Notes under the pieces: model-generated
Database searches by the model: none
What the model saw: the letters and a program-made list of their open reading frames with translations, nothing else
What the model was told of the DNA's origin: nothing
Shown here: positions 25,241 through 41,224 of the stretch, piece after piece
Position numbering within the stretch: the stretch's first letter is position 1
Layout: the number at the start of each line of letters is the position of its first letter
Position numbers and translations under genes: made by a program
Assembly (NCBI GenBank): GCA_030626405.1
Contig: DAOUPA010000001.1
Coordinates: forward strand, 1,437-65,436
Length of the DNA: 64,000 nt
From: Planctomicrobium sp.
Lineage (GTDB): Bacteria; Planctomycetota; Planctomycetia; Planctomycetales; Planctomycetaceae
Direction: 5' to 3'

Positions 25241-26347
25241 ATGGCGGATAATAAGAAACTTACAACTGCAGAAATTCTTGCCCTCGCCCGCCAGCAAAAC
25301 AGCGGTGGAGGTGCGGATGCCGATGACGCTTCGGAGAGCAGCACTGCTCCTGAAACTTCTCAGGCTCCTGTTCCGACTGAAGATAAAAAACCTGCGGCAG
25401 CCCCAAAGTCAACTGCTGACATTCTCGCTGCTGCTCGTACTCAGGGGGGTGAGGCCGAGAAGCCGAAACCTGCCACGGCGCCAGGGTCAACAGCAGATAT
25501 CCTGGCTGCTGCCCGTGCTCAGGGAGGCGGGGCCCAAGGCGGAGGAGCGCCAAAGCCAAAGCCTGCTGCCACTGCACCTAAGTCGACCGCTGATATCTTG
25601 GCGGCTGCTCGTGCTGGAGGCGGAAGTGCTGCGAAAGCGGCACCTGCTGCAAGTCAGCCGAAGGTGAAAAAAGCTGAAGCCGCACCTGTCGGTGATCGTC
25701 CTGCATTGAAGGATATGGTTGCCGCGGTCAAAGAGGCTCAGGCTTCAGGTGGTCCGGCAAAGCCGAAGCTTCCTGTTGGTAAGCCTGCACCTGCGAAACC
25801 AAAGTTTCCGAGCAAGAAAGAAAAGGTTGAGCGTCGAAAATTTGTTGCTACCTTGGCTGTCCTTCTGCTCACACCTTTTGTGGTGGCATGGTCTTCGATG
25901 AGTGCGATTGCGGCAATCTGGTCGCTCGGAATTGCTCGATTCATGATGCCGAACATGATGTTGGAGCTGCCATCCAAATTTAAGGTTGGCCCCCCTTCTG
26001 ATTTCCCACCAGGCAGTGTCTCTGCAAAGTTTAAGGCAAGCCGTGGGATTTGGATTATCAATACTGATGAGTATGAAGGTCAGGGCATTATTTACGCGTT
26101 GGCTTCCGTTTGTACTCACCTTGGGTGTACTCCTAACTGGCTCGAAGGGGAACAGAAATTCAAATGTCCCTGTCACGGGTCAGGTTTTTATATCACTGGA
26201 GTGAACTTCGAAGGCCCTGCACCTCGCCCCTTGGAGCGAGTTGGAATTAGCATTGCGGATGATGGAATGCTAGAAGTTGACAAAAGTGTGAAGTTTCAGG
26301 AAGAGCTGGGTCAGTGGTCTGACTCCAAATCTTACGAAGTGGCATAA
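25241..26347 (+). CDS. Rieske [2Fe-2S] subunit of a cytochrome b6f/bc-type complex, with a long repeat-containing N-terminal extension
   Basis: 368 aa. The Rieske boxes are CTHLGC and CPCHGS. A twin-arginine motif (ERRKFV) followed by a TM helix occurs only at about residue 198. It is preceded by an Ala/Pro/Lys-rich region with repeated STADILAAAR modules. Confidence 0.9.
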   Translation: MADNKKLTTAEILALARQQNSGGGADADDASESSTAPETSQAPVPTEDKKPAAAPKSTADILAAARTQGGEAEKPKPATAPGSTADILAAARAQGGGAQGGGAPKPKPAATAPKSTADILAAARAGGGSAAKAAPAASQPKVKKAEAAPVGDRPALKDMVAAVKEAQASGGPAKPKLPVGKPAPAKPKFPSKKEKVERRKFVATLAVLLLTPFVVAWSSMSAIAAIWSLGIARFMMPNMMLELPSKFKVGPPSDFPPGSVSAKFKASRGIWIINTDEYEGQGIIYALASVCTHLGCTPNWLEGEQKFKCPCHGSGFYITGVNFEGPAPRPLERVGISIADDGMLEVDKSVKFQEELGQWSDSKSYEVA

Positions 26348-26414
26348 GGCCTTGAGCGAAGCTCGATTCGTTTCCAGTGTTTTACTAACTCAATAGTGTC
26401 CGTCAGGTAACTGC

Positions 26415-27188
26415 ATGTCGGTAACTGAATATATCCGGAAGTCACAGATTTGGCGAAGTATTTTTCGTCATCCTGCCCCATATGATCGCCGCAACCGTGC
26501 GGTTGTCATTCTGACGAACTTCTTCCTCCACCTGCACCCGGTCTCTGCAAAGAAGGGCGGAATTGCCCTGTCGTACACGTGGTGCATGGGTGGAATTACT
26601 TTTTTCCTATTCCTTGTCGAAACGCTCACTGGCGTCCTGTTGATGTTCTACTATCGACCGACGCTGGAGTGGGCATTTACAGATATTCGTGCCCTGCGAG
26701 ACGTGAACACTCTGGGGATCATGCGTGAGATTCACCGCTGGGGGGCGCACGCGATGGTGATCACCGTGTGGCTCCATATGTACCGGGTGTTTCTGACGGG
26801 GAGTTACAAGCCTCCGAGGGAATTCAACTGGGTCATTGGTGTCTTGCTACTCGTGTTGACTCTACTATTATCGTTTACCGGTTACCTGCTTCCGTGGGAT
26901 CAGCTAGCCATCTGGGCGATTACGGTCGGTTCGAACATGGCTCGTGCGACACCTTTCCTTGGTCATGAAGGTCCGGGGTTCCAGCTACTTAATGTTGGTG
27001 GGTTTGATTTAATCACAAATGCAAGTGATGCGAGATTCCTGCTCCTCGGGGCACGTACAGTGGGTGAAGAAACCTTGAATAGGTTCTACATTCTGCACTG
27101 TGTTGCAATTCCGATTGTGGTTTCAGGGCTGATCGCCGTTCACTTTTGGCGCGTTCGTAAAGATGGTGGGATTAGTCAACCGCTATAG
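26415..27188 (+). CDS. Cytochrome b, b6-type (N-terminal four-helix half)
   Basis: 257 aa. Helix B has H-x13-H (EIHRWGAHAMVITVWLH). Helix D has H-x14-H (LHCVAIPIVVSGLIAVH). WCMGGIT aligns with the YCLGGIT of cytochrome b6. Confidence 0.9.
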   Translation: MSVTEYIRKSQIWRSIFRHPAPYDRRNRAVVILTNFFLHLHPVSAKKGGIALSYTWCMGGITFFLFLVETLTGVLLMFYYRPTLEWAFTDIRALRDVNTLGIMREIHRWGAHAMVITVWLHMYRVFLTGSYKPPREFNWVIGVLLLVLTLLLSFTGYLLPWDQLAIWAITVGSNMARATPFLGHEGPGFQLLNVGGFDLITNASDARFLLLGARTVGEETLNRFYILHCVAIPIVVSGLIAVHFWRVRKDGGISQPL

Positions 27189-27270
27189 GTTTTTGACTGG
27201 TTGTCAGCTTCACCACGAAGGTGGGGCCGTTTTAAGTTTGTACATTGGTAGAGTGCGGTATTAGGGAATT

Positions 27271-28635
27271 ATGAATCCTCATCCCGATTTAACGGTTGGC
27301 GTGATTCACGGCCTTGGCTGGCTGTACCTGCTGTTGTTCTTTTTGAACCTCGGCTGGACAGTCCGTAGCTATAAGGTTGATGGTCAATACGAAAGCCTGA
27401 TGGGCATCAAGCATGCCCCCAAGGCTTTGGTGTGGGCAGCTTACTCTGCGCTTTTACTGATCGTGACGCTGGTTCACTTTGCGGTTGAAAGCGACGCATC
27501 GAATTTCAAACTGAGACTCCCCGAATTCATTAAAAATCCGGCAGACGCCGTGATTGCGAATCCGATTAGTTTTTTCTGCCTGTCGATAGTCATTTACGCT
27601 GCCATCATCCTGCTTCGCAAATGGTGGGTCAAGCCGACAGTCTCTTGGGTTTTATTCAACCTGAGCGTGCTGTTCATTACTGTGAGTATGACAGACTACG
27701 ACTTCCGTAAAATTGTCGGCAAGCCCGATAACGTTCCTATTGTCGGGATGCTCTTCCTGGTCGGCTTCACGACATGGCTATACTTCTCAAAAGCCAATGA
27801 GAACGACCGGCGAATTGCCGAAGGACTTCCGGTTCGCGAGAAGGAACTCTCTGACCAGGTTCTTGTCTGGCCGGATCTGGTCTACACTGAAATGATCTGT
27901 ATGATCCTGATTACGGCACTTCTCATTGTCTGGGGTGTCGCACTTCAAGCTCCACTCGAAGAACCTGCCTCAGCAGTGAAGACCCCGAATCCTTCAAAAG
28001 CTCCGTGGTACTTCCTCGGACTGCAGGAAATGCTCGTCTACTTTGACCCCTGGATGGCTGGTGTTGTTCTGCCGAGTGTGATTCTCGTCGGACTGATGGC
28101 AATTCCATACATTGACTTCAACACCAAGGGCAACGGATATTACACATTCAATGAACGTAAGTTTGCAATTTCAACATTCCTATTTGGCTTTATGCCGCTG
28201 TGGACCGGAATGATCGTTCTCGGAACCTTCATTCGTGGACCGAACTGGAACATGTTTGGACTCTATGAATACTGGGATGCACACAAGCTTGAGGTGCTGA
28301 ACAATGTCAACCTGTCCGATTATTTCTGGCTGAGTTTCCTGGAACTTCCACTTCCGAAACCTGACCCGCAAGCGGGGTTTTTCTCGCAAGCTGGTTCAAT
28401 CCTTTTACGTGAGTGGACCGGAATCCTTGTGATTTTGTTTTACTTATTCGCGATTCCACCACTATTGGCAGTCACCATTTTCAAGAAGTTCTTCGTGAAA
28501 ATGGGATTTGTCCGGTTTATGGTGCTTGCGAACCTGTTTCTTTTTATGGCCTCACTACCATTGAAGATGGTGCTGCGGTGGGTCTTTAATCTGAAATACA
28601 TCGTTTCGATTCCCGAGTGGGTCTTTAACATCTAA
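27271..28635 (+). CDS. Subunit-IV-like (cytochrome b C-terminal half) membrane protein, enlarged
   Basis: 454 aa with about 10 TM helices. KAPWYFLGLQEML corresponds to the PEWYF motif of subunit IV and the cytochrome b C-terminal half. The first roughly 220 aa are extra TM helices. Confidence 0.75.
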   Translation: MNPHPDLTVGVIHGLGWLYLLLFFLNLGWTVRSYKVDGQYESLMGIKHAPKALVWAAYSALLLIVTLVHFAVESDASNFKLRLPEFIKNPADAVIANPISFFCLSIVIYAAIILLRKWWVKPTVSWVLFNLSVLFITVSMTDYDFRKIVGKPDNVPIVGMLFLVGFTTWLYFSKANENDRRIAEGLPVREKELSDQVLVWPDLVYTEMICMILITALLIVWGVALQAPLEEPASAVKTPNPSKAPWYFLGLQEMLVYFDPWMAGVVLPSVILVGLMAIPYIDFNTKGNGYYTFNERKFAISTFLFGFMPLWTGMIVLGTFIRGPNWNMFGLYEYWDAHKLEVLNNVNLSDYFWLSFLELPLPKPDPQAGFFSQAGSILLREWTGILVILFYLFAIPPLLAVTIFKKFFVKMGFVRFMVLANLFLFMASLPLKMVLRWVFNLKYIVSIPEWVFNI

Positions 28636-28708
28636 GTTAAGTTGATTTCTGTCGGCACATGTCAGTTGTGACAGGTTCGCAGGCAGAGCAGAGCAACGTT
28701 GAATATCA

Positions 28709-31700
28709 ATGCCAGCAAGTGAACAGTATTGGCGAAGTCTCCCGCAAATGCACAAAGTATTTGCGGCGAGTGCCGTGTTGCTACTCGGTACGACTTTGTT
28801 AATGATGTACAAAGACGAATCCCGTTCCTGGAAGCACTACCAGAAGCAGGCGGAGGCGTACCGCATACAGCGTATTGAACAGGAGCGCGAGCAATACAAC
28901 GATGCCGATTATCTCAAGAAAGTAAAAGAACTCGACGAGAGCGTGAAGCTCCTCCAAGCGGATTGGGACGCGAGATCCTCCGAAATTCGAGATCTTGAGT
29001 CGGGTCTCAAGGCATTAGAAGGTCAAGTTCAAATTCTCAAAGCAAGGTCGAAGACGAAAAACGCCGAGCGAGATAAAGCGAGAGCTGATTACGACATTAA
29101 GGTTCGAGATGAATCGAGCGAAAGTGAACTTGCTGAAGCTCTGGAAACCTTCGAACAGGCAAAGCTCATTGCAGATGAAACTGCACTTGAATCTGAGCAA
29201 GCGTTAGCAGAATTTGAAGCATCTAAGAGTGAACTCAACAAACAACGCAGCAAACTCGATGCTGCGAAAGACGCACTTGCTGAGACGACTGCGGCTGAGA
29301 AAGCCTTGGTGGAACAGAAGAATCTGCTTAAGCCAGATAATGGTTTTGTCGCTTTTAAACGCTGGGCGAAGGAACTCCCGATTCTGGAAGGGTTCAATCC
29401 TCATATCAAAATTCAATACGATTGGCCATCAGGCTTGGAACAGGAATTAGGCTCTGCCGTTGTTGATCGCGTTGACCGTTGCCGAACTTGTCACGTCTTT
29501 ATTGATGACTTCAGCGTCATTCGCGAAGGTGGTCAAGTTGTTGCAATGAAGCAGAGTTATCCGGACGGAGATTTTCCACAGCCGTTCGTATCCCATCCAA
29601 ATCCCGATCTCTTCCTCACGGCAGCTAGTCCTCACCCTGTCAATGACTTTGGGTGTACAATCTGCCACGCTGGCGATGGATCAGGCACAAGTTTTCAAAA
29701 CGCAGAGCACACGCCTGGGAATCCAGTCGTCGCTGCGAAATGGGAAAAAGAACATGATTGGCATTCCAATCACTTCTGGGAAGCACCACAACTTCCTGGG
29801 AGTTTCATCGAGTCGAGTTGCCTGCAATGTCACCACGACGTGGTTGAACTTGGTGTGAACCCCACATTTGGAGCGACTGCTCCGAAGCTCTTCAAAGGCT
29901 GGGAAACCATTCGGGATTATGGCTGCTTTGGTTGCCATGAAGTGAATGGCTTCGATGGAATCACACCGATTGGTCCCGACCTGCGGCTAGAACCAAACTC
30001 ACCGGAAGAGCTCGCCGTGATCGAGGCCGATCCGAATATGATCCCAGGAAAAATGCGAAAGGTCGGACCATCGCTTCGCCATATCGCCGATAAAACGACC
30101 CCGGAATTCATTGCGTACTGGACAGAAGAGCCAAGCCGGTTCCGACCGACAACGCGAATGCCGCAGTTCTTTGACCTGACCAATCAGCACGATGCCATGG
30201 CAGCACTGTTACAGCCAATGGAGCTTGCTGGCATTGCGAAGTACCTCGAAGCAAAATCTCAGAAGTTCGAGTACCTCTCACCAAGCAACGACTACAAACC
30301 TGATCCAAAACGTGGCGAAGAGCTCTTCTCCAAACGCGGGTGTCTGGCATGTCACAGCAAGCAAGGCGAAGCCTTTGACGGGATTGCTGCGAACTTCGGT
30401 CCAGACCTTTCCAGAATACACGAGAAAATCAAACCCGGTGAGGATGGCTTTAAGTGGATGTACACTTGGATCAAAGAGCCAAGTCGGTATCACACTCGTA
30501 CGCGAATGCCAGATCTTTATCTGAAGCCATACAACGAAGGTGACACTCACATCGACCCGGCAGCTGATATCGCGGCGTTTCTACTTCAAGGTGGAGCCAA
30601 AGAATTCCCTGCCTTGCCGACACCGAAACCGAATCTCGGATTGGTCGCAGCGCATGATTTCACCCTGAAAGACGCAAAAGAACTTGGCCTCAGTGATGAT
30701 CAATTCCGTGGCATTCTGGTTCAGGAAGTGATCCAGGGAAGTCCTGCTTCTCGTGCCGAAGTGAAAATTGGAGAGGACTGGGAAGAACGTCCTCTCTCTG
30801 TCGGCGATGTTGTCACCAGTTTCAACGGAACAGCAGTCAAGTCTCCGGAACACCTGAAAGAACTCGAAGCTGCTTCCAGTGTCAATGAAATCGTGACCTT
30901 AGATATCCTTCGAAACGGTCGCGAACTGACCGCTCGGTTAACTGTCACAACGCCACTGGATGATCTTGTCCGCTTGTTCTTGGGAAAAGCCCTTGATAGT
31001 GCAGGTTTGAAAAAGGCACTCGCAGAACGAAAGTACCCTGTCACCGCCGAAATGTTTGCTGACGGTGCATTGCTTCCAGACGTTGTTAAAGGTGATGAAG
31101 TCGAACTCGCACCTTTGAGTGCAGATGAGGAAGTGACGCCAGAGCAGTGGGAAGAACGAAAACTCGTCTATCTCGGTCGGCGAACAATTTCGCGATATGG
31201 CTGCTATGGTTGCCACGACATCCCAGGCTTTGAAACGGCACGTCCCATCGGAACTGCACTTCAAGATTGGGGACGAAAAGACACCTCGAAACTTGCTTAC
31301 GAGCACATTCACGAGTACCTGCATCATCACGGCGAACCAGTTGCCAAGTCAGAAGATGGCCATAATTCACACGCTCATGGTTCTCACAATGACGATGCAC
31401 ATGCGGCACTCGGAACAAGCACAGCTTCTCGGATGGAGAAAATTGTTGCGGACAAAGAAGCTGGTGGCGATGTCAGCGAACAAGATCTGACTGAAGCGAT
31501 GCTTTACAAAAGTGTCATTTCGCATGGTCGATCCGGATTCCTCTGGCAAAAACTTCGTCAGCCTAGAAGTTACGATTACAAGAAGACCGAAACAAAGGGT
31601 TGGGACGAACGGCTACGAATGCCGAAGTTCCCACTAGATACAGATCAGATCGAATCTGTCTCGACGTTTGTTCTGGGGTTGATCGCTCATCCTCCTTCGG

Positions 31701-32881
31701 AAGAATTCCAGTACCGACCAGATAAATCCAAAGAAGCAATCTTTGAAGGAGAACGCCTCCTCGCCAAATTCAATTGTACAGGCTGCCATGTTCTTGAAAT
31801 GGGTTCAGTCGAGTTTGAGTACGATCCAGCAGTCCTGGCGATCAAAGGTCAGGAAGTTGCAGACGCAGATCGTGCAGCCTTTGATTTACTCTCGCACATC
31901 AAGCCAATCGGGCGAGGTGGACAAGGTGCAACTGGTGAAACGACAGAGGATGGTTCTCTGGTTTACCGAGCCAACGGATTCATTCAGGGGATCCCTGATC
32001 CAGATGAAGAAGACCCTGAGTTCCGCTTCTTCTCATACCGTTTCTGGGATGGTTTCCAACTCGCTGATGGAAAGTACATCATGCCGAGTGAAGGAGTTCA
32101 AATCGCCGAAGGCCAGCTTCGCAAGTTTATCGATGGTCGGGGTGGAAAGTTTGCCGAGTGGCTCGCTGGCAAGCTCGCTCCAGAACTGAGCAAAACGCCT
32201 GGCGGTACCGACTACAACGCAGCCTGGCAGGCATCAGTTCCTCCGTTAACTGCCGAAGGTTTCAAAGTGCAGACTCCGTGGCTGTATCAGTTCCTCAAAA
32301 ACCCTGAGCAATTGCGACGGACAACGGTTCTTCGAATGCCTCGATTTAACATGAGCGATGAAGAAGCTCAGACGTTGGCAAACTACTTCGCCGCAAAGGA
32401 TGGGGTTCCGTTCCCATATCAATCAATTCCACCAAAAGAATTGGGATATCAGGTAGAGCAGGCTGCGACGTACAACGCGAAATATCCGGGTGCCGAATAC
32501 GATTACCTCACAGCTTCCTGGAATGTTTTGAACGGTCCATTGTGTCGGAAGTGTCACAATGTCGGTGGAAACGTCGTCAATGACCCGAAGCAGGTTAAAG
32601 GTCCGAATCTTCAACGCACCGAAAGAAGATTACGACCGGAATGGACTCAGCTGTGGGTCTACAAACCAATGTGGGTTTACCCCTACACATCCATGCCAGA
32701 GAACTTCCCAGCCGGAAAACCTGCCGACATGAAGAAGCTTTTTGGTGGTGAGAACCCTCGCCAGGCTCAGTCGATCATTGACGCACTCTTTAACTACACA
32801 CAGCTGATCGAAATCCATGGTCCGACAACTTACAATCCAGAGTCAGCCGCCCCTCCAACGAAAGCAGGTGGCGCAGAATGA
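28709..32881 (+). CDS. Membrane-anchored octaheme cytochrome c with coiled-coil, PDZ and His-rich segments
   Basis: 1390 aa. It has an N-terminal TM helix and about 180 aa of heptad-like charged sequence. There are eight CxxCH motifs (CRTCH, CTICH, CLQCH, CFGCH, CLACH, CYGCH, CTGCH, CRKCH). A PDZ-like segment (GILVQEVIQGSPASRAEV...GDVVTSFNG...LDILRNGRE) is also present. Confidence 0.85.
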   Translation: MPASEQYWRSLPQMHKVFAASAVLLLGTTLLMMYKDESRSWKHYQKQAEAYRIQRIEQEREQYNDADYLKKVKELDESVKLLQADWDARSSEIRDLESGLKALEGQVQILKARSKTKNAERDKARADYDIKVRDESSESELAEALETFEQAKLIADETALESEQALAEFEASKSELNKQRSKLDAAKDALAETTAAEKALVEQKNLLKPDNGFVAFKRWAKELPILEGFNPHIKIQYDWPSGLEQELGSAVVDRVDRCRTCHVFIDDFSVIREGGQVVAMKQSYPDGDFPQPFVSHPNPDLFLTAASPHPVNDFGCTICHAGDGSGTSFQNAEHTPGNPVVAAKWEKEHDWHSNHFWEAPQLPGSFIESSCLQCHHDVVELGVNPTFGATAPKLFKGWETIRDYGCFGCHEVNGFDGITPIGPDLRLEPNSPEELAVIEADPNMIPGKMRKVGPSLRHIADKTTPEFIAYWTEEPSRFRPTTRMPQFFDLTNQHDAMAALLQPMELAGIAKYLEAKSQKFEYLSPSNDYKPDPKRGEELFSKRGCLACHSKQGEAFDGIAANFGPDLSRIHEKIKPGEDGFKWMYTWIKEPSRYHTRTRMPDLYLKPYNEGDTHIDPAADIAAFLLQGGAKEFPALPTPKPNLGLVAAHDFTLKDAKELGLSDDQFRGILVQEVIQGSPASRAEVKIGEDWEERPLSVGDVVTSFNGTAVKSPEHLKELEAASSVNEIVTLDILRNGRELTARLTVTTPLDDLVRLFLGKALDSAGLKKALAERKYPVTAEMFADGALLPDVVKGDEVELAPLSADEEVTPEQWEERKLVYLGRRTISRYGCYGCHDIPGFETARPIGTALQDWGRKDTSKLAYEHIHEYLHHHGEPVAKSEDGHNSHAHGSHNDDAHAALGTSTASRMEKIVADKEAGGDVSEQDLTEAMLYKSVISHGRSGFLWQKLRQPRSYDYKKTETKGWDERLRMPKFPLDTDQIESVSTFVLGLIAHPPSEEFQYRPDKSKEAIFEGERLLAKFNCTGCHVLEMGSVEFEYDPAVLAIKGQEVADADRAAFDLLSHIKPIGRGGQGATGETTEDGSLVYRANGFIQGIPDPDEEDPEFRFFSYRFWDGFQLADGKYIMPSEGVQIAEGQLRKFIDGRGGKFAEWLAGKLAPELSKTPGGTDYNAAWQASVPPLTAEGFKVQTPWLYQFLKNPEQLRRTTVLRMPRFNMSDEEAQTLANYFAAKDGVPFPYQSIPPKELGYQVEQAATYNAKYPGAEYDYLTASWNVLNGPLCRKCHNVGGNVVNDPKQVKGPNLQRTERRLRPEWTQLWVYKPMWVYPYTSMPENFPAGKPADMKKLFGGENPRQAQSIIDALFNYTQLIEIHGPTTYNPESAAPPTKAGGAE

Positions 32882-33744
32882 TGATTCGCATGCAAACTAA
32901 ACAGATAGTATTTTCCGGACTTTTGTTGTCGACTCTCTTCGTCGCTGGATGTGGTTCATCCGTACGAAAAGAAGCCCTCGGCGGTGGAGCCTTAACGCCT
33001 GTGACTATCACACTTTTGCGTGAAGGTGGATCAGGTGATTCAGAGGCGGAATCCGCAGAATCGGCTGGCCCGAAAATCACAGAATTCGGAATGGTTCGCG
33101 GAAAAATTTCCGTCGATGGAAGCTTGCCACAACTTGCTGATGTGAGTGCGAAAGGTCAGGCGAAAGATGCCATCTGCGGAGAGAAGGGAATTAAGAATGA
33201 ATCCGTTACAGGAGAAAATGGTGGCTTGGGGAATGTCTTCATCTACCTGAAAAAGGTTCCAAACGTTGATGTTCCACCTCCATCAACAGATCAGATCGTC
33301 ATGGACCAGCAAGGATGCATGTTCGTTCCGCACGCACAGGTTGTTCAGGTTGGTCAACCAGTCCTGCTTAAAAATTCTGATCCAATTGCCCACAATGTGA
33401 AACTACAAGGTGGTTCGAATTCTCTTGCAGAAACGATTTCGCCAAACAATGCCGCCAACGTCGAATACAAATTTCAGTTCAGTGATCGAAAGCCAACCGG
33501 CGTTGTCTGTGACTTTCATACATTCATGTCTGCTTACGTCATGCCTGTCGACCATCCATGGGCTGCGGTGACAAATCCTGACGGGACGTTTGAAATACCA
33601 AATGTTCCTGCTGGAAAGGTAGAGTTCGTCATCTGGCACGAGAAGCTCGATTATATCGAACGCTCATATTCGGTTGATGTTCCAGCAAACGGTGATGCAG
33701 CGCCTATCGAGATCACAGTTAATGCGTCGAAGTTGTCCAGTTAA
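32878..33744 (+). CDS. Cupredoxin-like (type-1 copper) lipoprotein, paralog 1
   Basis: 288 aa. The lipobox is FVAGC. The cupredoxin pattern is FVPHAQVVQVGQPVLLKNSDPIAHNV ... CDFHTFM (C-x2-H-x2-M). A C-terminal beta-sandwich follows (NPDGTFEIPNVPAGKVEF). Its ATG overlaps the upstream stop (ATGA). Confidence 0.7.
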   Translation: MMIRMQTKQIVFSGLLLSTLFVAGCGSSVRKEALGGGALTPVTITLLREGGSGDSEAESAESAGPKITEFGMVRGKISVDGSLPQLADVSAKGQAKDAICGEKGIKNESVTGENGGLGNVFIYLKKVPNVDVPPPSTDQIVMDQQGCMFVPHAQVVQVGQPVLLKNSDPIAHNVKLQGGSNSLAETISPNNAANVEYKFQFSDRKPTGVVCDFHTFMSAYVMPVDHPWAAVTNPDGTFEIPNVPAGKVEFVIWHEKLDYIERSYSVDVPANGDAAPIEITVNASKLSS

Positions 33745-33775
33745 ACCATTATCGAAAAGAGACACGGAAACAGTA

Positions 33776-34747
33776 ATGTTTGCTCGGTTTCAATTACAAT
33801 TTGTTCTTCTACTTACGGTTGCGATCTTTTCAGGTTGTACGCCGCAGTTTCGTCGTGAAAAGACGGAAGTGAAGTCGGCATCGGATGTCGTGATTCATTT
33901 CGATGATCTTTCCTCTTCAAACAATTCCGAAGAGACTCCCGATGAAGCCGCCACACCTGCAACAACTCCGACAGCAGGTAATGAGTCAACTACAGCGACG
34001 ACTCCTAAAAAAGAGATGGTCGCAGCGACCACGACCTCAAAGCCTGACGTTGCAAAACAAGCCCCGACCACTACGGGCTACACTGGACCAGCGAAGTTCG
34101 TTGGTCGAGTCGTAGTGAAAGGGGATGTTCCTCTGTTTTCAGCACTTCTCGCTAAAGGTGCGGCGACAAAAGATATGTTTTGCTCAGAAATGGCTGTCCC
34201 TAACGAGACGGTCATCTCCAAGGATGGCGGGTTAGGGAACGTTTTCGTCTACATGAAAAAAGCTCCAAGAAAAGGTGTTCCTGAATACTCTGGCGAGCCG
34301 TTTGTCGTCAATCAAAAAGGGTGCATCTTCATTCCTCACGCACAAATTGTCAGAGTTGGGCAGCCTTTCATTTTGAAGAACTCAGACCCCGTTGCACACA
34401 ATGTCAGGTACAACGGATTCGCATCACAATTTAACGACACCGTCGTCTCTGGTTCGACAGATGGTTTGACAAAGGTCATTGAGTTCCCTGAGCGACTCCC
34501 AGCCGGGATGGTGTGCGATTTTCACAATTGGATGTCAGCCTATGTTTTGCCTGTTGATCATCCGTGGGCTGCTGTGACCGATGCCGATGGGAATTTCGAA
34601 ATCACAAATCTTCCAGAAGGGAAGTGGGATTTCGTCATTTGGCATGAGAAGGCGTTGTATATCGAACGATCATTCAAGGTCACCGCCGCACCTAACACCC
34701 TTATTGAAAAAGTTTTTGAAGTCAATGCGTCAAAACTGTCGCAGTAA
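33776..34747 (+). CDS. Cupredoxin-like (type-1 copper) lipoprotein, paralog 2
   Basis: 323 aa from ATG 33776. The lipobox is FSGC, followed by a Thr/Pro-rich linker. It has the same motifs as paralog 1: FIPHAQIVRVGQPFILKNSDPVAHNV ... CDFHNWM. Confidence 0.7.
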   Translation: MFARFQLQFVLLLTVAIFSGCTPQFRREKTEVKSASDVVIHFDDLSSSNNSEETPDEAATPATTPTAGNESTTATTPKKEMVAATTTSKPDVAKQAPTTTGYTGPAKFVGRVVVKGDVPLFSALLAKGAATKDMFCSEMAVPNETVISKDGGLGNVFVYMKKAPRKGVPEYSGEPFVVNQKGCIFIPHAQIVRVGQPFILKNSDPVAHNVRYNGFASQFNDTVVSGSTDGLTKVIEFPERLPAGMVCDFHNWMSAYVLPVDHPWAAVTDADGNFEITNLPEGKWDFVIWHEKALYIERSFKVTAAPNTLIEKVFEVNASKLSQ

Positions 34748-34769
34748 CCACAAGTATCGAGTTTTTCCT

Positions 34770-36215
34770 GTGAGAACTTTTTTCACACTATCGATGATCT
34801 GCCTGATCTCCGGTTGCGGAGGACAGCCTGAATTTTCGCACAGCGAGAAGTTTCAGACGCTGAAGCCGTACGCACAAATTTACGTGGATCAGGTTCTCGA
34901 CAACTACTTCGGATCACCATCTGACATGGTTGCCTGGGACAAACTGCCACTGGAACTTCACTACGGTCAAGGGACTGTTGTTGAAGCGAGTGGGCGAATG
35001 TTGACGGTCGAACTTCAAGCCCCACATGCCGAAATCACTGCTGGCACAGAAGTTCTTTGGGACAGTGGCATTCTCAATGACAAAGACAGCGCCTGGATTC
35101 TTGAATGGGACGAAGCAAAGCACCAAGCAAAATTGGAATCACCACTGGCAACCAATCCTGAAGTTGGTGATGCGGTCATTCTCGGACCTGGACAAATTCT
35201 GGCAACTGGGCGAATGCTCTATGCAGAACATTGTCAGCATTGTCACGGCGTTGCTGGCGACGGGAATGGACCGACAGCTCCTTATTTGAATCCACGACCT
35301 CGCGATTACCGCAAAGGGATTTTTAAATTCACAACGACACAAAGTTCCAAACGAGCCAGTCGTGAAGATTTGTCGCGTATCGTGGAAGACGGAATTCCTG
35401 GAACGTATATGCCTTCATTCAAATTATTGACTGAAGACGAGATGACCTCCATCATCGAGTACGTCATGTGGCTCTCGATGCGGGGTGAACTTGAAAACCA
35501 ACTCATCGGACTTCTGGCAGACAGCTATTCCGTTGAAGCGGTAGAAGATCGGATCGCTGGTGGGGATGAGACTTCTGATACAATTCATCAAGAATTCATT
35601 GATGCAGTCAACGATCCCGATTCATTTCCGTTTGAAGTCGACACAATCGTTTCTCGATTTACATCGGAATGGGTCTCGTCTCAGGAACCTGATGCAGAAG
35701 TTCAGCCTTTGACTCCGCGCACCCCTTCCTCTGATGAGTCGATCGCGAAAGGCCGCGAATTGTATTTGAAACCAAGCCTCAAGTGTGCTCAATGCCACGG
35801 CGAAGCTGGTCTCGGTGACGGATCACAAACTTTTGCTGTCTCCAAAGATGCGGCAGGACAGGATAATCTGACGCCTGGTCTCTACGACACTTGGGGAAAC
35901 CTGGTGAAACCCCGAAATCTTCACTCTGGAATATATCGTGGTGGTCGTCGACCGATCGATCTTTACTCTCGTATTTATGCAGGAATCAAAGGCACACCGA
36001 TGCCTGCGTTCTCTTCAACATTGCTCCGTAAATCTAATCCAGAAGATTCCGGATCGGAAATGACGGATGAAGATATCTGGCATCTCGTCAACTACATCTA
36101 CAGCATTCCATTCGAAGATGTCAAAGCGGGGCAGGGTGGATCGTCTATTGCAAATCCAGTGAAAGACGCCAATACCGCCAGTGAAGAAGATAGCGAAGAA
36201 GTTGCAGTAAATTAG
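34770..36215 (+). CDS. Diheme cytochrome c lipoprotein
   Basis: 481 aa from GTG 34770. The leader is (M)RTFFTLSMICLISGC. It has two CxxCH motifs (CQHCHGVAGDGNG; CAQCHGEAGLGDG) and GIPGTYMP / GIKGTPMP Met-ligand contexts. The longer ORF from 34581 overlaps the upstream gene. Confidence 0.8.
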   Translation: MRTFFTLSMICLISGCGGQPEFSHSEKFQTLKPYAQIYVDQVLDNYFGSPSDMVAWDKLPLELHYGQGTVVEASGRMLTVELQAPHAEITAGTEVLWDSGILNDKDSAWILEWDEAKHQAKLESPLATNPEVGDAVILGPGQILATGRMLYAEHCQHCHGVAGDGNGPTAPYLNPRPRDYRKGIFKFTTTQSSKRASREDLSRIVEDGIPGTYMPSFKLLTEDEMTSIIEYVMWLSMRGELENQLIGLLADSYSVEAVEDRIAGGDETSDTIHQEFIDAVNDPDSFPFEVDTIVSRFTSEWVSSQEPDAEVQPLTPRTPSSDESIAKGRELYLKPSLKCAQCHGEAGLGDGSQTFAVSKDAAGQDNLTPGLYDTWGNLVKPRNLHSGIYRGGRRPIDLYSRIYAGIKGTPMPAFSSTLLRKSNPEDSGSEMTDEDIWHLVNYIYSIPFEDVKAGQGGSSIANPVKDANTASEEDSEEVAVN

Positions 36216-36346
36216 TTTTTTGTTTTGAGTTGTATAGTGCCCGCGAATAAAGTTGTCGCATTCCTCGCAGTATTGTCCCGCGAGGTAGAATTTGGCAATG
36301 TTGTCCATGAGTGGTATAAACCTTGTGACCTGATGGGGTTATTCAA

Positions 36347-37228
36347 GTGAAGTGGTTTTGGTGTCTATTTTTTGCATTTTGGCCAATTGTCGCAATTGTC
36401 GTCTGCTTGTTGGCGCCAGGTAACAACTGGTGGTTTCCAGGTGAGGCTGCGTCTCCGCTTGGTCGGCGTATTGATGACTTGTTCTACATGATCTTGTGGA
36501 TCACTTCGATCACATTCGTGGGAACCCAACTCGTTCTGGCGTACGTGTTGTTCAAAGGTGCGAGTGATACCGAACCAGGTACAGCGAATGAGAAAGCTTG
36601 GTTCTCTCATGGAAGCCATAAACTGGAAGTTATCTGGTCGAGCGTTCCAGCAGTGATCCTGCTGTTCATTGCGTTCTATCAACTTGATGTCTGGGCTGAA
36701 TACCGTGTCAAAGATGCGTTTCCACGCAAACGTATGGAAGCTGTCTTTGAACGAATTCATCAGGACCGTCAAAAGAACGACAGTCTCGCATTGGCAGAAG
36801 TCACAGCACGACAATTCGAATGGCGAATTCGCTATCCCGGCTTCAACGCAGATGGCACGCTCAAGGCACTCATGCCAGACCCACAACCAACCGATTTGTA
36901 CGCAGTCAACGATCTTCACTTACCTGCCAGTGCACCAGTGATGATCAACCTGAGAACTCAGGATGTCCAACACTCATTCTTCTTACCAGAACTACGTATC
37001 AAACAAGATGCAGTGCCTGGATTAGTCATTCCAATTTGGTTTGAAGCGGACCAACAACGTTCCTATCAACTGCTCTGTGCTGAACTTTGCGGTTGGGGAC
37101 ATTACAAAATGAATGCCCGGTTCGTCGCAGAATCGGACGAACAGTTTATCGAATACCTCCGTCAACTCGAACGCGAACAAAACGAAGATCGAGTCGACGA
37201 CGCACCAGACACGGATGAAGAAGAGTAA
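36347..37228 (+). CDS. ctaC: Cytochrome c oxidase subunit II (CuA; no fused cytochrome c domain)
   Basis: 293 aa with two N-terminal TM helices. The CuA site is HSFF ... CAELCGWGHYKM. Confidence 0.92.
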   Translation: MKWFWCLFFAFWPIVAIVVCLLAPGNNWWFPGEAASPLGRRIDDLFYMILWITSITFVGTQLVLAYVLFKGASDTEPGTANEKAWFSHGSHKLEVIWSSVPAVILLFIAFYQLDVWAEYRVKDAFPRKRMEAVFERIHQDRQKNDSLALAEVTARQFEWRIRYPGFNADGTLKALMPDPQPTDLYAVNDLHLPASAPVMINLRTQDVQHSFFLPELRIKQDAVPGLVIPIWFEADQQRSYQLLCAELCGWGHYKMNARFVAESDEQFIEYLRQLEREQNEDRVDDAPDTDEEE

Positions 37229-37289
37229 TACTGAAAGAGCAATCTTTCGAGTCTTCTTTTTCGTTAGTCAATACATTTGGAGTGAGGCG

Positions 37290-39074
37290 GTGAGTTCAGT
37301 CGCAGCCACAACAGAAACTGCAGAACACGGTCATCATGCACACAATGATGATCTACTTGCGCTCTTAAAAGCAGCACCATTCTGGTCAACCGATCATAAA
37401 GTGATCGGTATCCAGTTTATGATGACGACACTTCTCATGTTGATGGTCGGTGGTGCGCTCGCGCTGGGGGTTCGCTGGCAGTTGGCATTTCCCTGGGAGA
37501 ACATGCCGTTTTTCGGAGCATTGGTTCCGGCGACAGCAGGCGGACAAATACCGCCTGAGTTCTACACAATGCTCTTTACGATGCATGCAACGGTGATGAT
37601 CTTCCTTGTGATCATTCCAATTCTTGCAGGAGCATTCGGAAACTTCCTGATTCCGCTGATGATCGGTGCGGACGACATGGCGTTCCCGATGTTGAACGCC
37701 TTGAGCTACTGGTTCATGTGGCCTGCAATCGCCTGTTTTGGATGTAGCTTTTTCTTCGGAGGTGGTCCAGCTGCAGGGTGGACATCATACCCAGCTCTTT
37801 CTGCCCTTTCTCAAGCTGCTCCAGGCTCTGGACACGCACAAACATTCTGGTTGTTGGGAGTTACATTTGTCGGGTTCTCGTCGATGATGGGTTCGATCAA
37901 CTACATGACGACGATCATCAATATGCGGGCACCTGGCCTGACGCTCTTCCGGATGCCACTGACAATTTGGTCAATGTTCATCACAGCAATTTTACAGGCG
38001 TTCGCGTTGCCGGTCCTCACCGCCGCAGGCTTCATGCTTGTCACCGACCGGATCTTGGGCACTTGCTTCTTCGTTCCGGCTGGACTGATCGTTAATAACG
38101 CCGATCCAACAGTCGGCGGCGGACAAACGCTGCTTTGGCAGCACTTGTTCTGGTTCTATTCTCACCCTGCGGTGTACATCATGTTGCTGCCTGCAATGGG
38201 TATGGTTTCGGACATGCTTGCCTGCATGTGTCGTAAGCCAATCTTCGGATACAAGCCAATGGTTTATTCCATGTCTGCGATTGCTGGCCTAGGGTTTATC
38301 GTGTGGGGGCACCACATGTTTACCTCTGGAATGAATCCCGCGCTCGGGATGACATTCATGATTTCGACAGTCATGATCGCGTTGCCATCAGCGGTGAAGG
38401 TGTTCAACTGGATCGGTACGATCTGGGGCGGGAAACCGGAATTCAACGTTGTCTTCCTGAATTGTATTGCATTCGTTTCGATGTTCATCGTCGGTGGACT
38501 TTCCGGAATTTTCATGGCTGCCGTGCCTGTCGACATTTATATTCACGACACATACTTCATCGTTGCTCACTTCCATTACGTGCTGTTCGGGGCAACGTTG
38601 TTTGGAGTCTTTGGAGCCATCCACTTCTGGTATCCGAAAATGTTCGGTCGCTACATGAGTGAAGGCTGGGGCAAGCTGCACTTCTTCTTGACCTTTGTCG
38701 GCTTCAATGGAACATTCTTCCCCATGCACCTGCTTGGTGTTGCTGGGATGCCTCGTCGATATGCCGATCCTTACCTATACCCTTATCTGGAACATTTTCT
38801 CCCGATGAATCAATTCATGACGATTTGTGCTGCCCTCATGGGATTCGCACAATTCATCTTGATCGGGAATTTCGTTTTGAGTTGGTTCTTCGGTAAAAAG
38901 GCCGGGCGGAACCCTTGGAATGCAAATGGTCTCGAATGGGCAACTCCATCGCCTCCTGGTCATGGAAACTTCGACATTCCACCGGTTGTTTACCGTGGAC
39001 CGTACGAATACGCAAATCCAGATACCGAAGCTGACTTCTGGCCACAAACGCAGCCGCCGAATCCAGCGACTTAA
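37290..39074 (+). CDS. ctaD: Cytochrome c oxidase subunit I (A-type heme-copper oxidase)
   Basis: Motifs: WFYSHPAVYIMLLP, GHHMF, HFHYV and 12 or more TM helices. The GTG start at 37290 follows a GGAG/GAGG motif. The ORF from 37113 overlaps ctaC. Confidence 0.95.
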   Translation: MSSVAATTETAEHGHHAHNDDLLALLKAAPFWSTDHKVIGIQFMMTTLLMLMVGGALALGVRWQLAFPWENMPFFGALVPATAGGQIPPEFYTMLFTMHATVMIFLVIIPILAGAFGNFLIPLMIGADDMAFPMLNALSYWFMWPAIACFGCSFFFGGGPAAGWTSYPALSALSQAAPGSGHAQTFWLLGVTFVGFSSMMGSINYMTTIINMRAPGLTLFRMPLTIWSMFITAILQAFALPVLTAAGFMLVTDRILGTCFFVPAGLIVNNADPTVGGGQTLLWQHLFWFYSHPAVYIMLLPAMGMVSDMLACMCRKPIFGYKPMVYSMSAIAGLGFIVWGHHMFTSGMNPALGMTFMISTVMIALPSAVKVFNWIGTIWGGKPEFNVVFLNCIAFVSMFIVGGLSGIFMAAVPVDIYIHDTYFIVAHFHYVLFGATLFGVFGAIHFWYPKMFGRYMSEGWGKLHFFLTFVGFNGTFFPMHLLGVAGMPRRYADPYLYPYLEHFLPMNQFMTICAALMGFAQFILIGNFVLSWFFGKKAGRNPWNANGLEWATPSPPGHGNFDIPPVVYRGPYEYANPDTEADFWPQTQPPNPAT

Positions 39075-39162
39075 TACTGCCGTACTGAAGTTCTTCTAAT
39101 TCTGATACCCATTTTCCGCAGTTCGCTGCAAAGTTGTATTTCCAGAGACTTGTCAATTTCTA

Positions 39163-40137
39163 ATGTCCCCACAAAGTTCAACAAACTGGTTTCGCCGACT
39201 GGCCGTTTCGACGGTTTGCCTGACGATGGTGACGTTGATCTTTGGAGCATTGACGACATCCAAGAACGCTGGAATGGCTTTTCGTGACTGGCCGACATCC
39301 GATGGTTACTTAATGGTGACTTATCCCTGGTTCGGTGACTTCGCGAAAAATTGGGATAAGTTTCTGGAGCATGGGCACCGACTGGCAGGAATGTTGATCG
39401 GCATCTGGTCAATTGCCCTTGTCGCGTGTGCCTTCAAAACCCAGCAAAGACAAACAGTCAAAACCCTTTCAATTCTGGTGTTATTGGGTGTAATTTGTCA
39501 GGGACTACTCGGAGGATTTCGCGTTCAACTTGATGAACGTGGACTGGCAATGCTCCACGGAGCATTCGCAGCAATCGTCTTCGCCCTGATGGGTGCCGTC
39601 ATCCTCCTTTCAGGAAAGAAGTGGGCCGCACCAGAACCCGAATCAGAACGTAACACGCTGCGAACGATGAAGGTTCTTTCCGTATTGGTCGTTGCTATTC
39701 TCACTGCTCAGTTCATCTTCGGTGGACTGATCCGACATCGAGGGACCGGTTTACATGAACATCTGGTACTGGGTGTCGCATCGCTCGGTCTCATTTTTGT
39801 GAACTTCACATTCTGCGGATTTTCGGAATCTGGCTGGTTGAGAAAGTCGGGAATTATTCTGCTGCTCATTGCCTTGGGACAAGTCGGCTTGGGAGCCGGT
39901 GCCTGGGTTTTGAAATTCGGATTTGCCACAACAGGTTACGTAGCGATTAGTGATTCGATTCAGCAGGTGACTCTGCGCACGGCCCACACTGTTTGGGGCA
40001 TCGTCACATTTCAAGCTGCCGTTGTTCATCTCTTAAAAGTTTTCCGAGTGAGTTCTGTTTCTCATATTGCAAGTTCAGAACCGCTGGCGATCCGCCGATC
40101 CGGGAACACGCTCGCGATTGGAGGGAGACAGGAATGA
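39163..40137 (+). CDS. ctaA: Heme A synthase (COX15/CtaA family)
   Basis: 324 aa with 8 TM helices and conserved His contexts (EHGHRLAG, ...LHEHL). It lies between ctaD and ctaB. Confidence 0.85.
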   Translation: MSPQSSTNWFRRLAVSTVCLTMVTLIFGALTTSKNAGMAFRDWPTSDGYLMVTYPWFGDFAKNWDKFLEHGHRLAGMLIGIWSIALVACAFKTQQRQTVKTLSILVLLGVICQGLLGGFRVQLDERGLAMLHGAFAAIVFALMGAVILLSGKKWAAPEPESERNTLRTMKVLSVLVVAILTAQFIFGGLIRHRGTGLHEHLVLGVASLGLIFVNFTFCGFSESGWLRKSGIILLLIALGQVGLGAGAWVLKFGFATTGYVAISDSIQQVTLRTAHTVWGIVTFQAAVVHLLKVFRVSSVSHIASSEPLAIRRSGNTLAIGGRQE

Positions 40138-41105: not shown

Positions 41106-41119
41106 CATTGTCGCATTTT

Positions 41120-41145
41120 GCCTCACGGGCATCATACTGTGAGGC
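41120..41145 (+). repeat. Hairpin related to the GCCTCAC variant of the REP-like element
   Basis: GCCTCAC ... 12-nt loop ... GTGAGGC, 15 nt after the ctaB stop. It shares the stem sequence with the copy at 22905 but lacks the CACTTNAAGTG core. Confidence 0.35.
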
Positions 41146-41224
41146 ATGTGACACCTGAGTCGTGGGCACAAAATTCCTTTAATAGATTCGCGGGTTATTG
41201 ACTCGCACTTGAGGTTGCTGTTTC

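What the first reader, a model, noticed from the sequence alone, without database searches (positions are those of the whole stretch)
25262..25753. Rieske protein has a roughly 195-aa extension upstream of its twin-arginine motif containing 4-5 conserved STADILAAAR-GG modules
The RR motif (ERRKFV, 25832-25837) and TM anchor begin only at residue 198. The preceding Ala/Pro/Lys-rich region contains TAEILALARQQNSGGG, followed by three near-identical K/GSTADILAAAR(T/A)(Q)GGG modules. A degenerate fifth module is PALKDMVAAVKEAQASGG.

The three central modules encode the same peptide but differ at synonymous positions: ACT/ACA/ACC, GAC/GAT, ATT/ATC and CTC/CTG/TTG. The peptide is therefore under purifying selection and is not simply a recent DNA slippage product.

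A long structured segment N-terminal to a Tat signal is atypical for Rieske proteins. It would have to stay cytoplasmic, implying a docking or regulatory role.
Basis: seen in the sequence. Interest (0 to 1): 0.65.

Follow-up and report, generated by a model that had tools for sequence, protein, structure and literature searches.

The report
Docking-motif tail on planctomycete Rieske protein
The iron-sulfur subunit of this planctomycete's respiratory bc-type complex carries a real, translated 197-residue floppy tail on the cytoplasmic side. The tail is studded with four or five tiny helices that are as strongly conserved as the catalytic domain. The same helices recur on a few other proteins linked to the respiratory chain, so they look like a previously undescribed docking code whose binding partner is still unknown.

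Summary
The ORF 25241-26347 encodes a b6f-type Rieske protein. Residues 1-197 precede an invariant RR motif and a transmembrane anchor, and they hold one TAEILALAR module, three TADILAAAR modules and one diverged module.

- **Conservation:** almost all of the 120 best orthologues carry 2-5 modules. In the one pair where dS is not saturated, dN/dS is 0.024 in the modules, the same as in the catalytic part, against 0.24 in the linkers.
- **Structure:** AlphaFold2 predicts isolated short helices in disordered linkers.
- **Distribution:** the module is almost confined to the class, presumably Planctomycetia (71 of 151 genomes, against 1 weak hit in about 237 other genomes of the phylum). It is portable. 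It also forms the tail of an uncharacterised SH3-fold protein, which this genome encodes too.
- **Other carriers:** it occurs in cNMP-binding/4Fe-4S proteins. It also occurs in stand-alone, membrane-tethered arrays encoded as the first gene of cytochrome c oxidase operons (5 of 5 contexts read).
- **Literature and databases:** no Pfam or NCBIfam model covers it, and I found no paper that describes it.

Best reading: a multivalent array of short linear motifs at the cytoplasmic face of the respiratory chain. The partner is not identified, so the mechanism is inferred.

The parts
25241..26347 (+). Rieske iron-sulfur subunit gene (368 aa) of a b6f-like Rieske/cytochrome b complex. It is the first gene of a cluster that continues into a cytochrome c oxidase operon.
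   Evidence: ORF. Pfam PF00355 at residues 247-332. NCBIfam PetC/QcrA partial matches. Downstream cytochrome b6, subunit IV, and cyt c-COX2-COX1-CtaA-CtaB-COX3.
25241..25831 (+). N-terminal cytoplasmic extension, residues 1-197. Composition is 26% Ala, 12% Lys, 12% Pro and 10% Gly, with net charge +9. It is predicted to be disordered apart from short helices.
   Evidence: Composition. AF2 helices at 9-20, 58-66, 116-124 and 156-168, with linkers at pLDDT below 50. No Pfam or NCBIfam hit.
25253..25312 (+). Module 1, KKLTTAEILALARQQNSGGG (residues 5-24). It is nearly identical to the C-terminal module of the SH3-fold companion family.
25403..25450 (+). Module 2, PKSTADILAAARTQGG (residues 55-70).
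   Evidence: 28.5 bits.
25481..25531 (+). Module 3, PGSTADILAAARAQGGG (residues 81-97).
   Evidence: 30.4 bits.
25577..25624 (+). Module 4, PKSTADILAAARAGGG (residues 113-128).
   Evidence: 29.1 bits.
25691..25753 (+). Diverged module next to the membrane, GDRPALKDMVAAVKEAQASGG (residues 151-171). M159 is invariant in the 19-sequence alignment and at least 90% conserved in 119 orthologues.
   Evidence: (helix 156-168).
25832..25843 (+). Twin-arginine motif RRKF (R198 and R199 invariant in 119 orthologues).
   Evidence: TatC gene in the genome.
25841..25948 (+). Uncleaved signal-anchor and transmembrane helix (residues 201-236).
   Evidence: Hydropathy maximum at residues 201-208. AF2 helices 198-209 and 212-235.
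25979..26236 (+). Rieske [2Fe-2S] domain with cluster boxes CTHLGC (26111-26128) and CPCHG (26165-26179).

Best explanation
The 197 residues ahead of the Tat signal-anchor are translated and stay in the cytoplasm. They form a flexible Ala/Pro/Lys-rich tether that displays four or five short helices with an N-terminal cap. The consensus is [ST]-x-x-[DE]-[IM]-L-A-x-A-R-x-Q-G-G, which combines a capping box with a Gly stop.

These helices are short linear motifs recognised stereospecifically by a partner. The array gives multivalent, long-reach ('fly-casting') docking at the n-side of the Rieske/cytochrome b complex, which as a dimer would display 8-10 motifs.

The motif is a portable element, essentially restricted to one class, that is attached to several kinds of protein:
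- complex III, by fusion to the Rieske subunit;
- membrane-tethered stand-alone proteins encoded at the head of cytochrome c oxidase operons;
- soluble proteins: an SH3-fold protein, cNMP-binding/4Fe-4S proteins and a nitrite/sulfite-reductase-like fusion enzyme.

The array therefore most likely gathers these proteins, or one common hub that binds the motif, at the cytoplasmic face of the respiratory membrane.

**Shown:** translation, selection, predicted topology, predicted disorder with helices, portability, and linkage to respiratory genes.

**Inferred:** that the helices bind a protein. The partner is unidentified.
For: **Translation and constraint**
- The start codon and the RR pair are conserved in 119 orthologues.
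- For G053 vs G081, dN/dS is 0.024 in modules, 0.024 in the TM+Rieske part and 0.24 in linkers. In pairs with saturated dS, pN is about 0.10 in modules, 0.10-0.15 in the Rieske part and 0.26-0.43 in linkers.
- Polar residues are conserved by identity as strongly as apolar ones. Counts out of 403 modules: T 397, D/E 395, I 401, L 394, R 400.

**Array properties**
- Copy number is 2-5, the median spacing is 31 aa, and linkers vary in length and charge.
- AF2 predicts isolated helices in linkers of low pLDDT.

**Portability**
- In 151 genomes of the class, all module loci listed coincide with the Rieske gene or an SH3-fold protein, by coordinates or by reading about 30 of them. There are three exceptions.
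- A whole-library profile search finds only 272 proteins. They include cNMP/4Fe-4S proteins and stand-alone arrays.
- Five of five stand-alone arrays lie directly upstream of cyt c-COX2-COX1-CtaA-CtaB-COX3.
- In the window, the same oxidase operon follows the Rieske/b genes.

**Co-variation**
- Among 49 genomes with both the Rieske and the SH3 gene, 36 have modules on both and 10 on neither. One to three are discordant, two of these being contig-end artefacts.
- Within family f1 the counts are: Rieske+ SH3+ 21, Rieske- SH3- 13, Rieske- SH3+ 2, Rieske+ SH3- 0.
Against: - No binding partner has been identified.
- The SH3-fold domain cannot be the universal receptor. Family f4 has module-bearing Rieske proteins (21 genomes) but no SH3 gene, and 10 genomes have the SH3+module protein without this Rieske.
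- The co-variation across lineages may reflect only a few evolutionary events.
- The gene neighbourhood of the SH3 gene is uninformative.
- Helices of about 10-12 residues rich in Ala could act in other ways, such as self-association or surface binding.
Confidence: 0.55

Rival explanations
1. Homotypic association. The Ala-rich helices carry a small-xxx-small pattern (A-A-A-R-A) and pack against each other. All module-bearing proteins would then cross-link directly and form a clustered or condensate-like layer that organises respiratory complexes. No separate hub protein would be needed.
For: - The same motif sits on membrane-anchored proteins (Rieske; arrays in cox operons) and on soluble proteins (SH3, cNMP/Fe-S).
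- No receptor domain is universally present.
- The arrays are multivalent with variable copy number.
Against: - Isolated 10-12-residue helices usually self-associate weakly.
- The near-invariant polar T, D/E, R and Q look more like a heterotypic interface.
- AF2 does not pack the four helices together in the monomer.
Confidence: 0.15
2. Membrane-surface binding. The helices lie on the cytoplasmic leaflet as weak amphipathic anchors and shape or sense the membrane around the complex.
For: - The tail is net positive and K-rich next to the membrane.
- The stand-alone arrays end in a clearly amphipathic W/F/R helix, so this system does use membrane association.
Against: - The hydrophobic moment of the modules is low (0.16-0.25), and they have no aromatic or bulky face. 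The crude measure did not separate a MinD control, so this test is inconclusive.
- The polar residues are conserved by identity.
- Some lineages have acidic linkers.
- The Rieske protein is already membrane-anchored.
- The stand-alone arrays carry a separate, dedicated anchor.
Confidence: 0.1
3. Biogenesis role. The modules bind a cytoplasmic chaperone (Tat proofreading, Fe-S delivery or DnaK-like) that holds the Rieske domain until the cluster is inserted and export can proceed.
For: - The tail lies directly ahead of an invariant Tat motif.
- Rieske proteins must acquire their cluster before Tat export (PMC13673990).
Against: The same modules occur on soluble proteins that have no Tat signal and, in the SH3 family, no cofactor motif. 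They also occur on arrays in cox operons. Rieske proteins of sister lineages and of other phyla do without them.
Confidence: 0.08
4. The tail is mainly an entropic spacer or 'bristle'. The helices only tune its stiffness and bind nothing.
For: - Linker sequence and length evolve freely.
- Ala/Pro-rich linkers are known as spacers in other proteins (general knowledge).
Against: - dN/dS in the modules equals that of the catalytic domain.
- Nine or more positions are near-invariant by identity.
- The modules are re-used in unrelated architectures.
Confidence: 0.05
5. The upstream region is not translated, and the real start is downstream (M159 or later).
For: M159 is highly conserved. No RNA or proteomic data exist for this cold-seep genome.
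Against: - The frame is open, the start codon is conserved, and all indels are in frame in every orthologue.
- Synonymous sites are saturated while the peptide is preserved.
Confidence: 0.01

Closest known systems
Actinobacterial QcrA Rieske proteins (class IV Tat substrates, e.g. Streptomyces Sco2149)
   Same: This is also a Rieske subunit of a bc-type complex whose Tat signal is internal and uncleaved, preceded by extra N-terminal sequence (PMC13673990; PDB hits 7q21, 6hwh and 6adq match only the Rieske domain).
   Different: In QcrA the extra part consists of two Sec-inserted transmembrane helices. Here it is a soluble, disordered, repeat-bearing cytoplasmic tail, and there is no sequence similarity outside the Rieske domain.
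FecR-type class V Tat substrates
   Same: The topology is the same: an N-terminal part stays on the cis (cytoplasmic) side, followed by an internal uncleaved RR signal-anchor and a C-terminal domain exported in the folded state (PMC13673990).
   Different: FecR has a folded globular cis-domain with a known partner (the sigma factor FecI). Here AF2 predicts no globular fold, and the protein is a respiratory subunit.
Multivalent helical-motif scaffolds in disordered proteins (CsoS2 and EPYC1, which bind Rubisco) - from general knowledge
   Same: Both have short helices repeated in flexible linkers, variable copy number, motifs that evolve far more slowly than the linkers, and avidity as the presumed working principle.
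   Different: The sequences are unrelated and the partner here is unknown. The array is anchored to a membrane respiratory complex, and no link to carbon fixation is seen.
SH3-fold accessory subunits on the cytoplasmic face of bioenergetic complexes (NdhS, PsaE; PetP from general knowledge)
   Same: The companion protein's N-domain is a confident small beta-barrel (pLDDT above 90). Weak Foldseek matches include NdhS (2jz2, 3c4s, 6a7k) and PsaE.
   Different: The E-values are only 0.005-0.05, and KOW domains score equally well. A profile search of PDB sequences finds nothing. None of these subunits carries a motif-array tail.

Membership tests
Rieske iron-sulfur subunit of bc/b6f-type complexes | The two cluster-binding boxes, C-x-H-x-G-C and C-x-x-H. 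| tested here: met
   CTHLGC at 291-296 and CPCHG at 309-313, invariant in 119 orthologues. Pfam PF00355, 37 bits against a cut-off of 20.3.
Rieske iron-sulfur subunit of bc/b6f-type complexes | Encoded together with cytochrome b (here the split form, b6 plus subunit IV). | tested here: met
   PF00033 in 26415-27188 and PF00032 in 27271-28635.
Tat substrate with uncleaved signal-anchor | A twin-arginine motif directly followed by a hydrophobic helix, with Tat machinery present. | tested here: met
   ERRKFV followed by the hydrophobic stretch 201-236. RR invariant. TatC at 208 bits in the genome. Actual export cannot be tested here.
Class V Tat substrate (FecR-like) | [quoted passage not shown] | tested here: not met
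   AF2 predicts only isolated helices, and the linkers have pLDDT below 50.
Recent DNA tandem repeat (slippage product) | Head-to-tail DNA copies of high identity. | tested here: not met
   TRF finds no array. The copies are 62-77% identical, with differences at synonymous sites.
Known helical DNA- or protein-binding mini-domains (SAP/HeH, Rho_N) or any curated family | A match to a Pfam or NCBIfam model. | tested here: not met
   Residues 1-197 have no Pfam hit at E up to 1 and no NCBIfam hit.
Amphipathic membrane-targeting helix | A high hydrophobic moment, with a bulky apolar face flanked by basic residues. | tested here: inconclusive
   muH is 0.16-0.25 with no aromatic residues. The simple measure also gave only 0.27 for the MinD control.
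Short linear docking motif (SLiM) array | A short conserved motif in a disordered context, re-used in unrelated proteins, with a defined binding partner. | tested here: inconclusive
   The disordered context, the conservation and the re-use are met. A partner was not identified and cannot be tested with these tools.

The most novel reading that the evidence does not exclude
Planctomycetia possess a lineage-specific 'respiratory-chain docking code'. Arrays of one short capped helix are anchored on complex III (the Rieske tail) and beside complex IV (arrays in cox operons). Through one common interaction they recruit soluble carriers of the same helix: an SH3-fold protein of the kind that docks ferredoxin on NDH-1 and PSI, cNMP-sensing 4Fe-4S proteins, and reductase fusion enzymes. 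This would form a multivalent, possibly condensate-like layer on the cytoplasmic side that organises or regulates electron flow, for example by feeding the n-side of a b6f-like complex that contains heme ci.
Probability: 0.25. Interest if true: 0.85.

Novelty: new variant of a known kind. Interest (0 to 1): 0.66.

Why it matters
Rieske/cytochrome b complexes are among the best-studied enzymes in bioenergetics. Their Rieske subunits are thought to have only a short cytoplasmic stub.

Here a large bacterial class has added a long tail to that subunit. The tail carries motifs as constrained as the iron-sulfur site. The same motif is used on proteins encoded with the terminal oxidase and on soluble redox or sensor proteins.

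That points to an unrecognised layer of organisation or regulation of a respiratory chain from the cytoplasmic side. It is directly testable with peptides, pull-downs and complex prediction. It also gives a first functional handle on a widespread uncharacterised SH3-fold protein family (more than 1,300 database members).

Tried and rejected
- **Curated families:** Pfam and NCBIfam scans of the tail and of the companion protein gave nothing.
- **Solved structures:** a PDB sequence search matched only the Rieske domain. A profile of the SH3-like domain gave no meaningful PDB hit.
- **Literature:** full-text searches for eight motif strings gave 0 papers, and general searches found no description of the tail.
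- **SH3 domain as the universal receptor:** rejected on phyletic grounds.
- **AF2 confidence as a sign of docking:** the pLDDT of the terminal helices (83-87) was considered. It is not interpretable, because the Rieske model shows the same value without any domain to dock on.
- **Gene neighbourhood of the SH3 gene:** no conserved functional partner.
- **Hydrophobic moment:** it did not discriminate from a control.
- **RNA evidence:** none exists, only DNA runs from a cold-seep metagenome.
- **Other contexts:** those of P0278, P0383 and P0267 were uninformative or too short.
- **Resemblances recalled from memory:** FliM 'EIDAL', UIM, MIM, AKAP helices, BMC encapsulation peptides and FHA pTxxI sites were all considered. 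None matches the invariant positions well enough to claim.

Full report
**1. The observation**

The ORF 25241..26347 (+) encodes 368 residues. Pfam places a Rieske [2Fe-2S] domain at residues 247-332. The next two genes are cytochrome b6 (26415-27188) and a long subunit-IV-like protein (27271-28635).

The sequence read directly and indexed shows these elements:
- KKLTTAEILALARQQNSGGG at residues 5-24;
- three [KG]STADILAAAR...GG modules at 55-70, 81-97 and 113-128;
- GDRPALKDMVAAVKEAQASGG at 151-171;
- RRKF at 198-201 (RR = nt 25832-25837);
- a hydrophobic anchor at 201-236.

The three central copies are only 62-77% identical at DNA level, and Tandem Repeats Finder sees no array. This is therefore not a fresh slippage product.

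A profile of the module, run against all six frames of the 7.1-Mb assembly, hits only this ORF. It scores 96 bits with four significant domains, and the next hit has E = 1.4. A strict regular expression gives the same answer.

**2. The tail is translated and constrained**

The 120 best database homologues are planctomycete Rieske proteins, and almost all carry the modules. Counts are: 2 modules in 8 proteins, 3 in 56, 4 in 53 and 5 in 1. The median spacing is 31 residues.

In an alignment of 119 orthologues, R198 and R199 are invariant. M1, K6, L7, T9, I12, L13, A14, R17, the module cores and M159 are at least 90% conserved.

I compared congeneric genomes codon by codon. Synonymous sites are mostly saturated. 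Non-synonymous divergence in the modules (pN about 0.10) equals that of the TM+Rieske part (0.10-0.15) and is 3-4 times lower than in the linkers (0.26-0.43). In the one pair with usable dS (G053 vs G081), dN/dS is 0.024 in modules, 0.024 in TM+Rieske and 0.24 in linkers.

Neither is met.

**3. Anatomy of a module**

Over 403 module instances the consensus is A-[KA]-P-K-S-T-A-D-I-L-A-A-A-R-A-Q-[GK]-[AG]-G-G. Counts are T 397, D/E 395, I 401, L 394, A 397 and R 400.

Across lineages the common features are:
- an N-cap S/T (or D) with an acidic or Ser residue three positions later, which is a capping box;
- Pro often at N1 in the short variant;
- a core h-L-A-x-A-R;
- a Gly-rich stop.

Lineage variants include MSVAEMLAAAR and RDTASILAAAR..KPGPMSKAEA (Pirellulales-labelled contigs), GRPLTLKEKLAAARAGG (a second group), and the shorter KKLSPLELARQQGA.

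AlphaFold2 with a 119-sequence alignment predicts helices at 9-20, 58-66, 116-124 and 156-168. Linkers have pLDDT below 50, and the TM helix and Rieske fold are confident.

The tail is 26% Ala, 12% Lys, 12% Pro and 10% Gly, with net charge +9. The positive charge is concentrated next to the membrane. This fits an N-in topology. The genome has a TatC gene.

**4. Distribution**

Among named genome contigs, the extension with modules occurs in Planctomycetaceae, Pirellulales and related MAGs. Gemmataceae-labelled contigs and homologues outside the phylum have short N-termini.

In 151 genomes sampled across the class, 71 have long-type modules. Among about 237 genomes from the rest of the phylum there is a single weak hit.

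A profile search of 1.84 billion representative proteins finds only 272 proteins at E up to 1e-3. The motif is therefore clade-specific and rare.

**5. The module is portable**

Many genomes showed a second module locus. It encodes an uncharacterised protein of about 200-350 aa with three parts:
- a highly conserved 70-residue N-domain;
- a disordered tail with 2-9 modules;
- a C-terminal variant, either STAEILALARQQGAFKG or TADKIAYCRRVDAKG.

The family has 1,371 database members. All are annotated 'hypothetical', and none matches Pfam or NCBIfam.

This genome has one at G000:C532 (L101:1492-2232, 246 aa). It carries four EKKLSPLEMARQQGAAG modules and a C-terminal SSTEGIIALARKQGAFQG.

The short and long variants are interchangeable. 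One Rieske protein (L015) carries the short variant, and one companion protein (L081) carries both.

AF2 models the N-domain confidently (pLDDT above 90) as a helix plus a five-stranded SH3/KOW-like barrel. Foldseek gives only weak matches (E 0.005-0.05) to KOW domains, NdhS and PsaE. A sequence profile finds nothing in the PDB.

Further architectures:
- proteins of 960-1045 aa with cNMP-binding domains, 3-5 modules and a 4Fe-4S dicluster domain (L098, P0250, P0340);
- a WD40 protein with one C-terminal module, and a 968-aa fusion of nitrite/sulfite-reductase-like, Rieske-like and FNR-like parts with NSTADILAAARAG in a linker;
- a single-TM protein next to a Ser/Thr kinase (L100);
- Rieske-like paralogues whose cluster-binding boxes lack the usual His ligands but that keep the modules (P0284, P0313).

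**6. Link to the terminal oxidase**

A further group consists of module arrays that end in an amphipathic W/F/R-rich helix (...GGWFARLFETRV...GWRALLRRWLG).

In all five genomic contexts I could read, this gene lies immediately upstream of a lipoprotein cytochrome c, followed by COX2, COX1, CtaA, CtaB and COX3 (L139-L142 and L146). The genome holding L139 has no orthologue of the b6f-type Rieske protein.

In the window, the same oxidase operon (34581-42238) follows the Rieske, b6, subunit IV, octaheme cytochrome and cupredoxin genes. The array is therefore either fused to complex III or encoded at the head of the complex IV operon. This gene fusion/fission pattern ties it to the aerobic respiratory chain.

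**7. Phyletic pattern**

I combined three searches over the same 151 genomes. Among the 49 genomes with both the Rieske and the SH3 gene:

| Pattern | Genomes |
|---|---|
| Long Rieske and tailed SH3 protein | 36 |
| Short Rieske and tail-less SH3 domain | 10 |
| Discordant (two are contig-end artefacts) | 1-3 |

Within the window's own family the counts are Rieske+ SH3+ 21, Rieske- SH3- 13, Rieske- SH3+ 2 and Rieske+ SH3- 0.

Two patterns cut against mutual dependence. In 21 genomes of family f4 the Rieske protein has modules but there is no SH3 gene. Ten genomes have the tailed SH3 protein without this Rieske. The two carriers are therefore not mutually dependent, and the SH3 domain cannot be the universal receptor. 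These correlations involve related genomes and probably few independent events.

**8. Interpretation**

The following points are what one expects of a multivalent short-linear-motif array that docks a protein partner:
- the helices are pre-formed and capped;
- polar and apolar positions are both conserved by identity;
- linkers evolve freely and copy number varies;
- the module is re-used on unrelated proteins, attached through flexible segments.

Its placement puts that docking at the cytoplasmic face of the respiratory membrane. It sits on the n-side of complex III, on membrane-tethered proteins of oxidase operons, and on soluble redox or sensor proteins.

I cannot tell whether the carriers bind a common hub or bind each other. 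That is the main uncertainty, and no tool here could test binding.

The other readings fare as follows:
- **Biogenesis only:** disfavoured, because soluble proteins that are not Tat substrates carry the motif.
- **Membrane binding:** disfavoured, though not excluded.
- **Pure spacer:** contradicted by the selection data.

**9. Comparison with known systems**

The protein meets the defining features of a b6f-type Rieske subunit and of a Tat signal-anchored protein.

Its topology resembles class IV Tat substrates (actinobacterial QcrA) and class V substrates (FecR) as described in PMC13673990. It differs from both, because the cis-side part is neither transmembrane helices nor a folded domain.

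In working principle the closest analogues are the repeated helical motifs of CsoS2 and EPYC1. This comparison rests on general knowledge and on no sequence relation.

I found no paper or curated model that describes the tail, the module or the companion family. An earlier first-stage note on another genome had spotted the short-variant tail protein. It agrees with my reading but is not independent evidence.

**10. Verdict**

The finding extends to a class-wide, portable motif linked to respiratory complexes III and IV. Function is inferred, and the partner is unknown.

Noticed in passing
G000:C532:9726-10469 (L101:1492-2232), outside the window: This genome encodes a 246-aa uncharacterised protein. 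It has a confident SH3/KOW-like N-domain followed by four EKKLSPLEMARQQGAAG modules and a C-terminal SSTEGIIALARKQGAFQG. The family has 1,371 database members and no Pfam or NCBIfam model.
   Followed up: yes
L139:119-952, L140:7001-7630, L141:7001-7657, L142:1190-2320, L146:600-1595: Stand-alone module-array proteins that end in an amphipathic W/F/R helix are the first gene upstream of cyt c-COX2-COX1-CtaA-CtaB-COX3 operons in 5 of 5 contexts read. The taxonomy of these contigs was not established here.
   Followed up: partly
P0250, P0340; L098 (G057:C30): Large proteins (960-1045 aa) carry 3-5 modules in a central disordered stretch, alongside two or three cyclic-nucleotide-binding domains and a 4Fe-4S dicluster domain.
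   Followed up: partly
L159 (G010:C1:2738500-2743500): A congeneric genome encodes a 968-aa fusion of nitrite/sulfite-reductase-like, rubredoxin-like, Rieske-like and FNR-like parts. A single NSTADILAAARAG module sits in an interdomain linker. The window's genome has no close orthologue.
   Followed up: partly
P0284, P0313; G044:C56, G072:C33, G080:C67: Rieske-like paralogues whose cluster-binding boxes lack the usual His ligands (e.g. CPVRGC ... CPCDES) still keep N-terminal module arrays.
   Followed up: no
window 25241-42238: The Rieske/b6/subunit IV genes, an octaheme cytochrome, two cupredoxins and a complete cyt c-COX2-COX1-CtaA-CtaB-COX3 set form one co-directional cluster of about 17 kb. 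In the called ORF, COX1 (37113-39074) has about 97 residues ahead of the Pfam COX1 domain.
   Followed up: partly
L064 and L018 (contigs labelled Candidatus Kuenenia): Two MAG contigs labelled Kuenenia carry Rieske proteins with module types seen in non-anammox Planctomycetia. L064 is nearly identical in its tail to L060 and L112. This may be mis-binning.
   Followed up: no
L100:3984-4733 (G148:C28): A 249-aa protein has three modules, one transmembrane helix and a short C-terminal part. It is encoded next to a Ser/Thr protein kinase gene.
   Followed up: no
P0310: Two modules are fused to a SPOR (peptidoglycan-binding) domain with no evident signal peptide or TM helix. This could be a chimeric assembly.
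   Followed up: no
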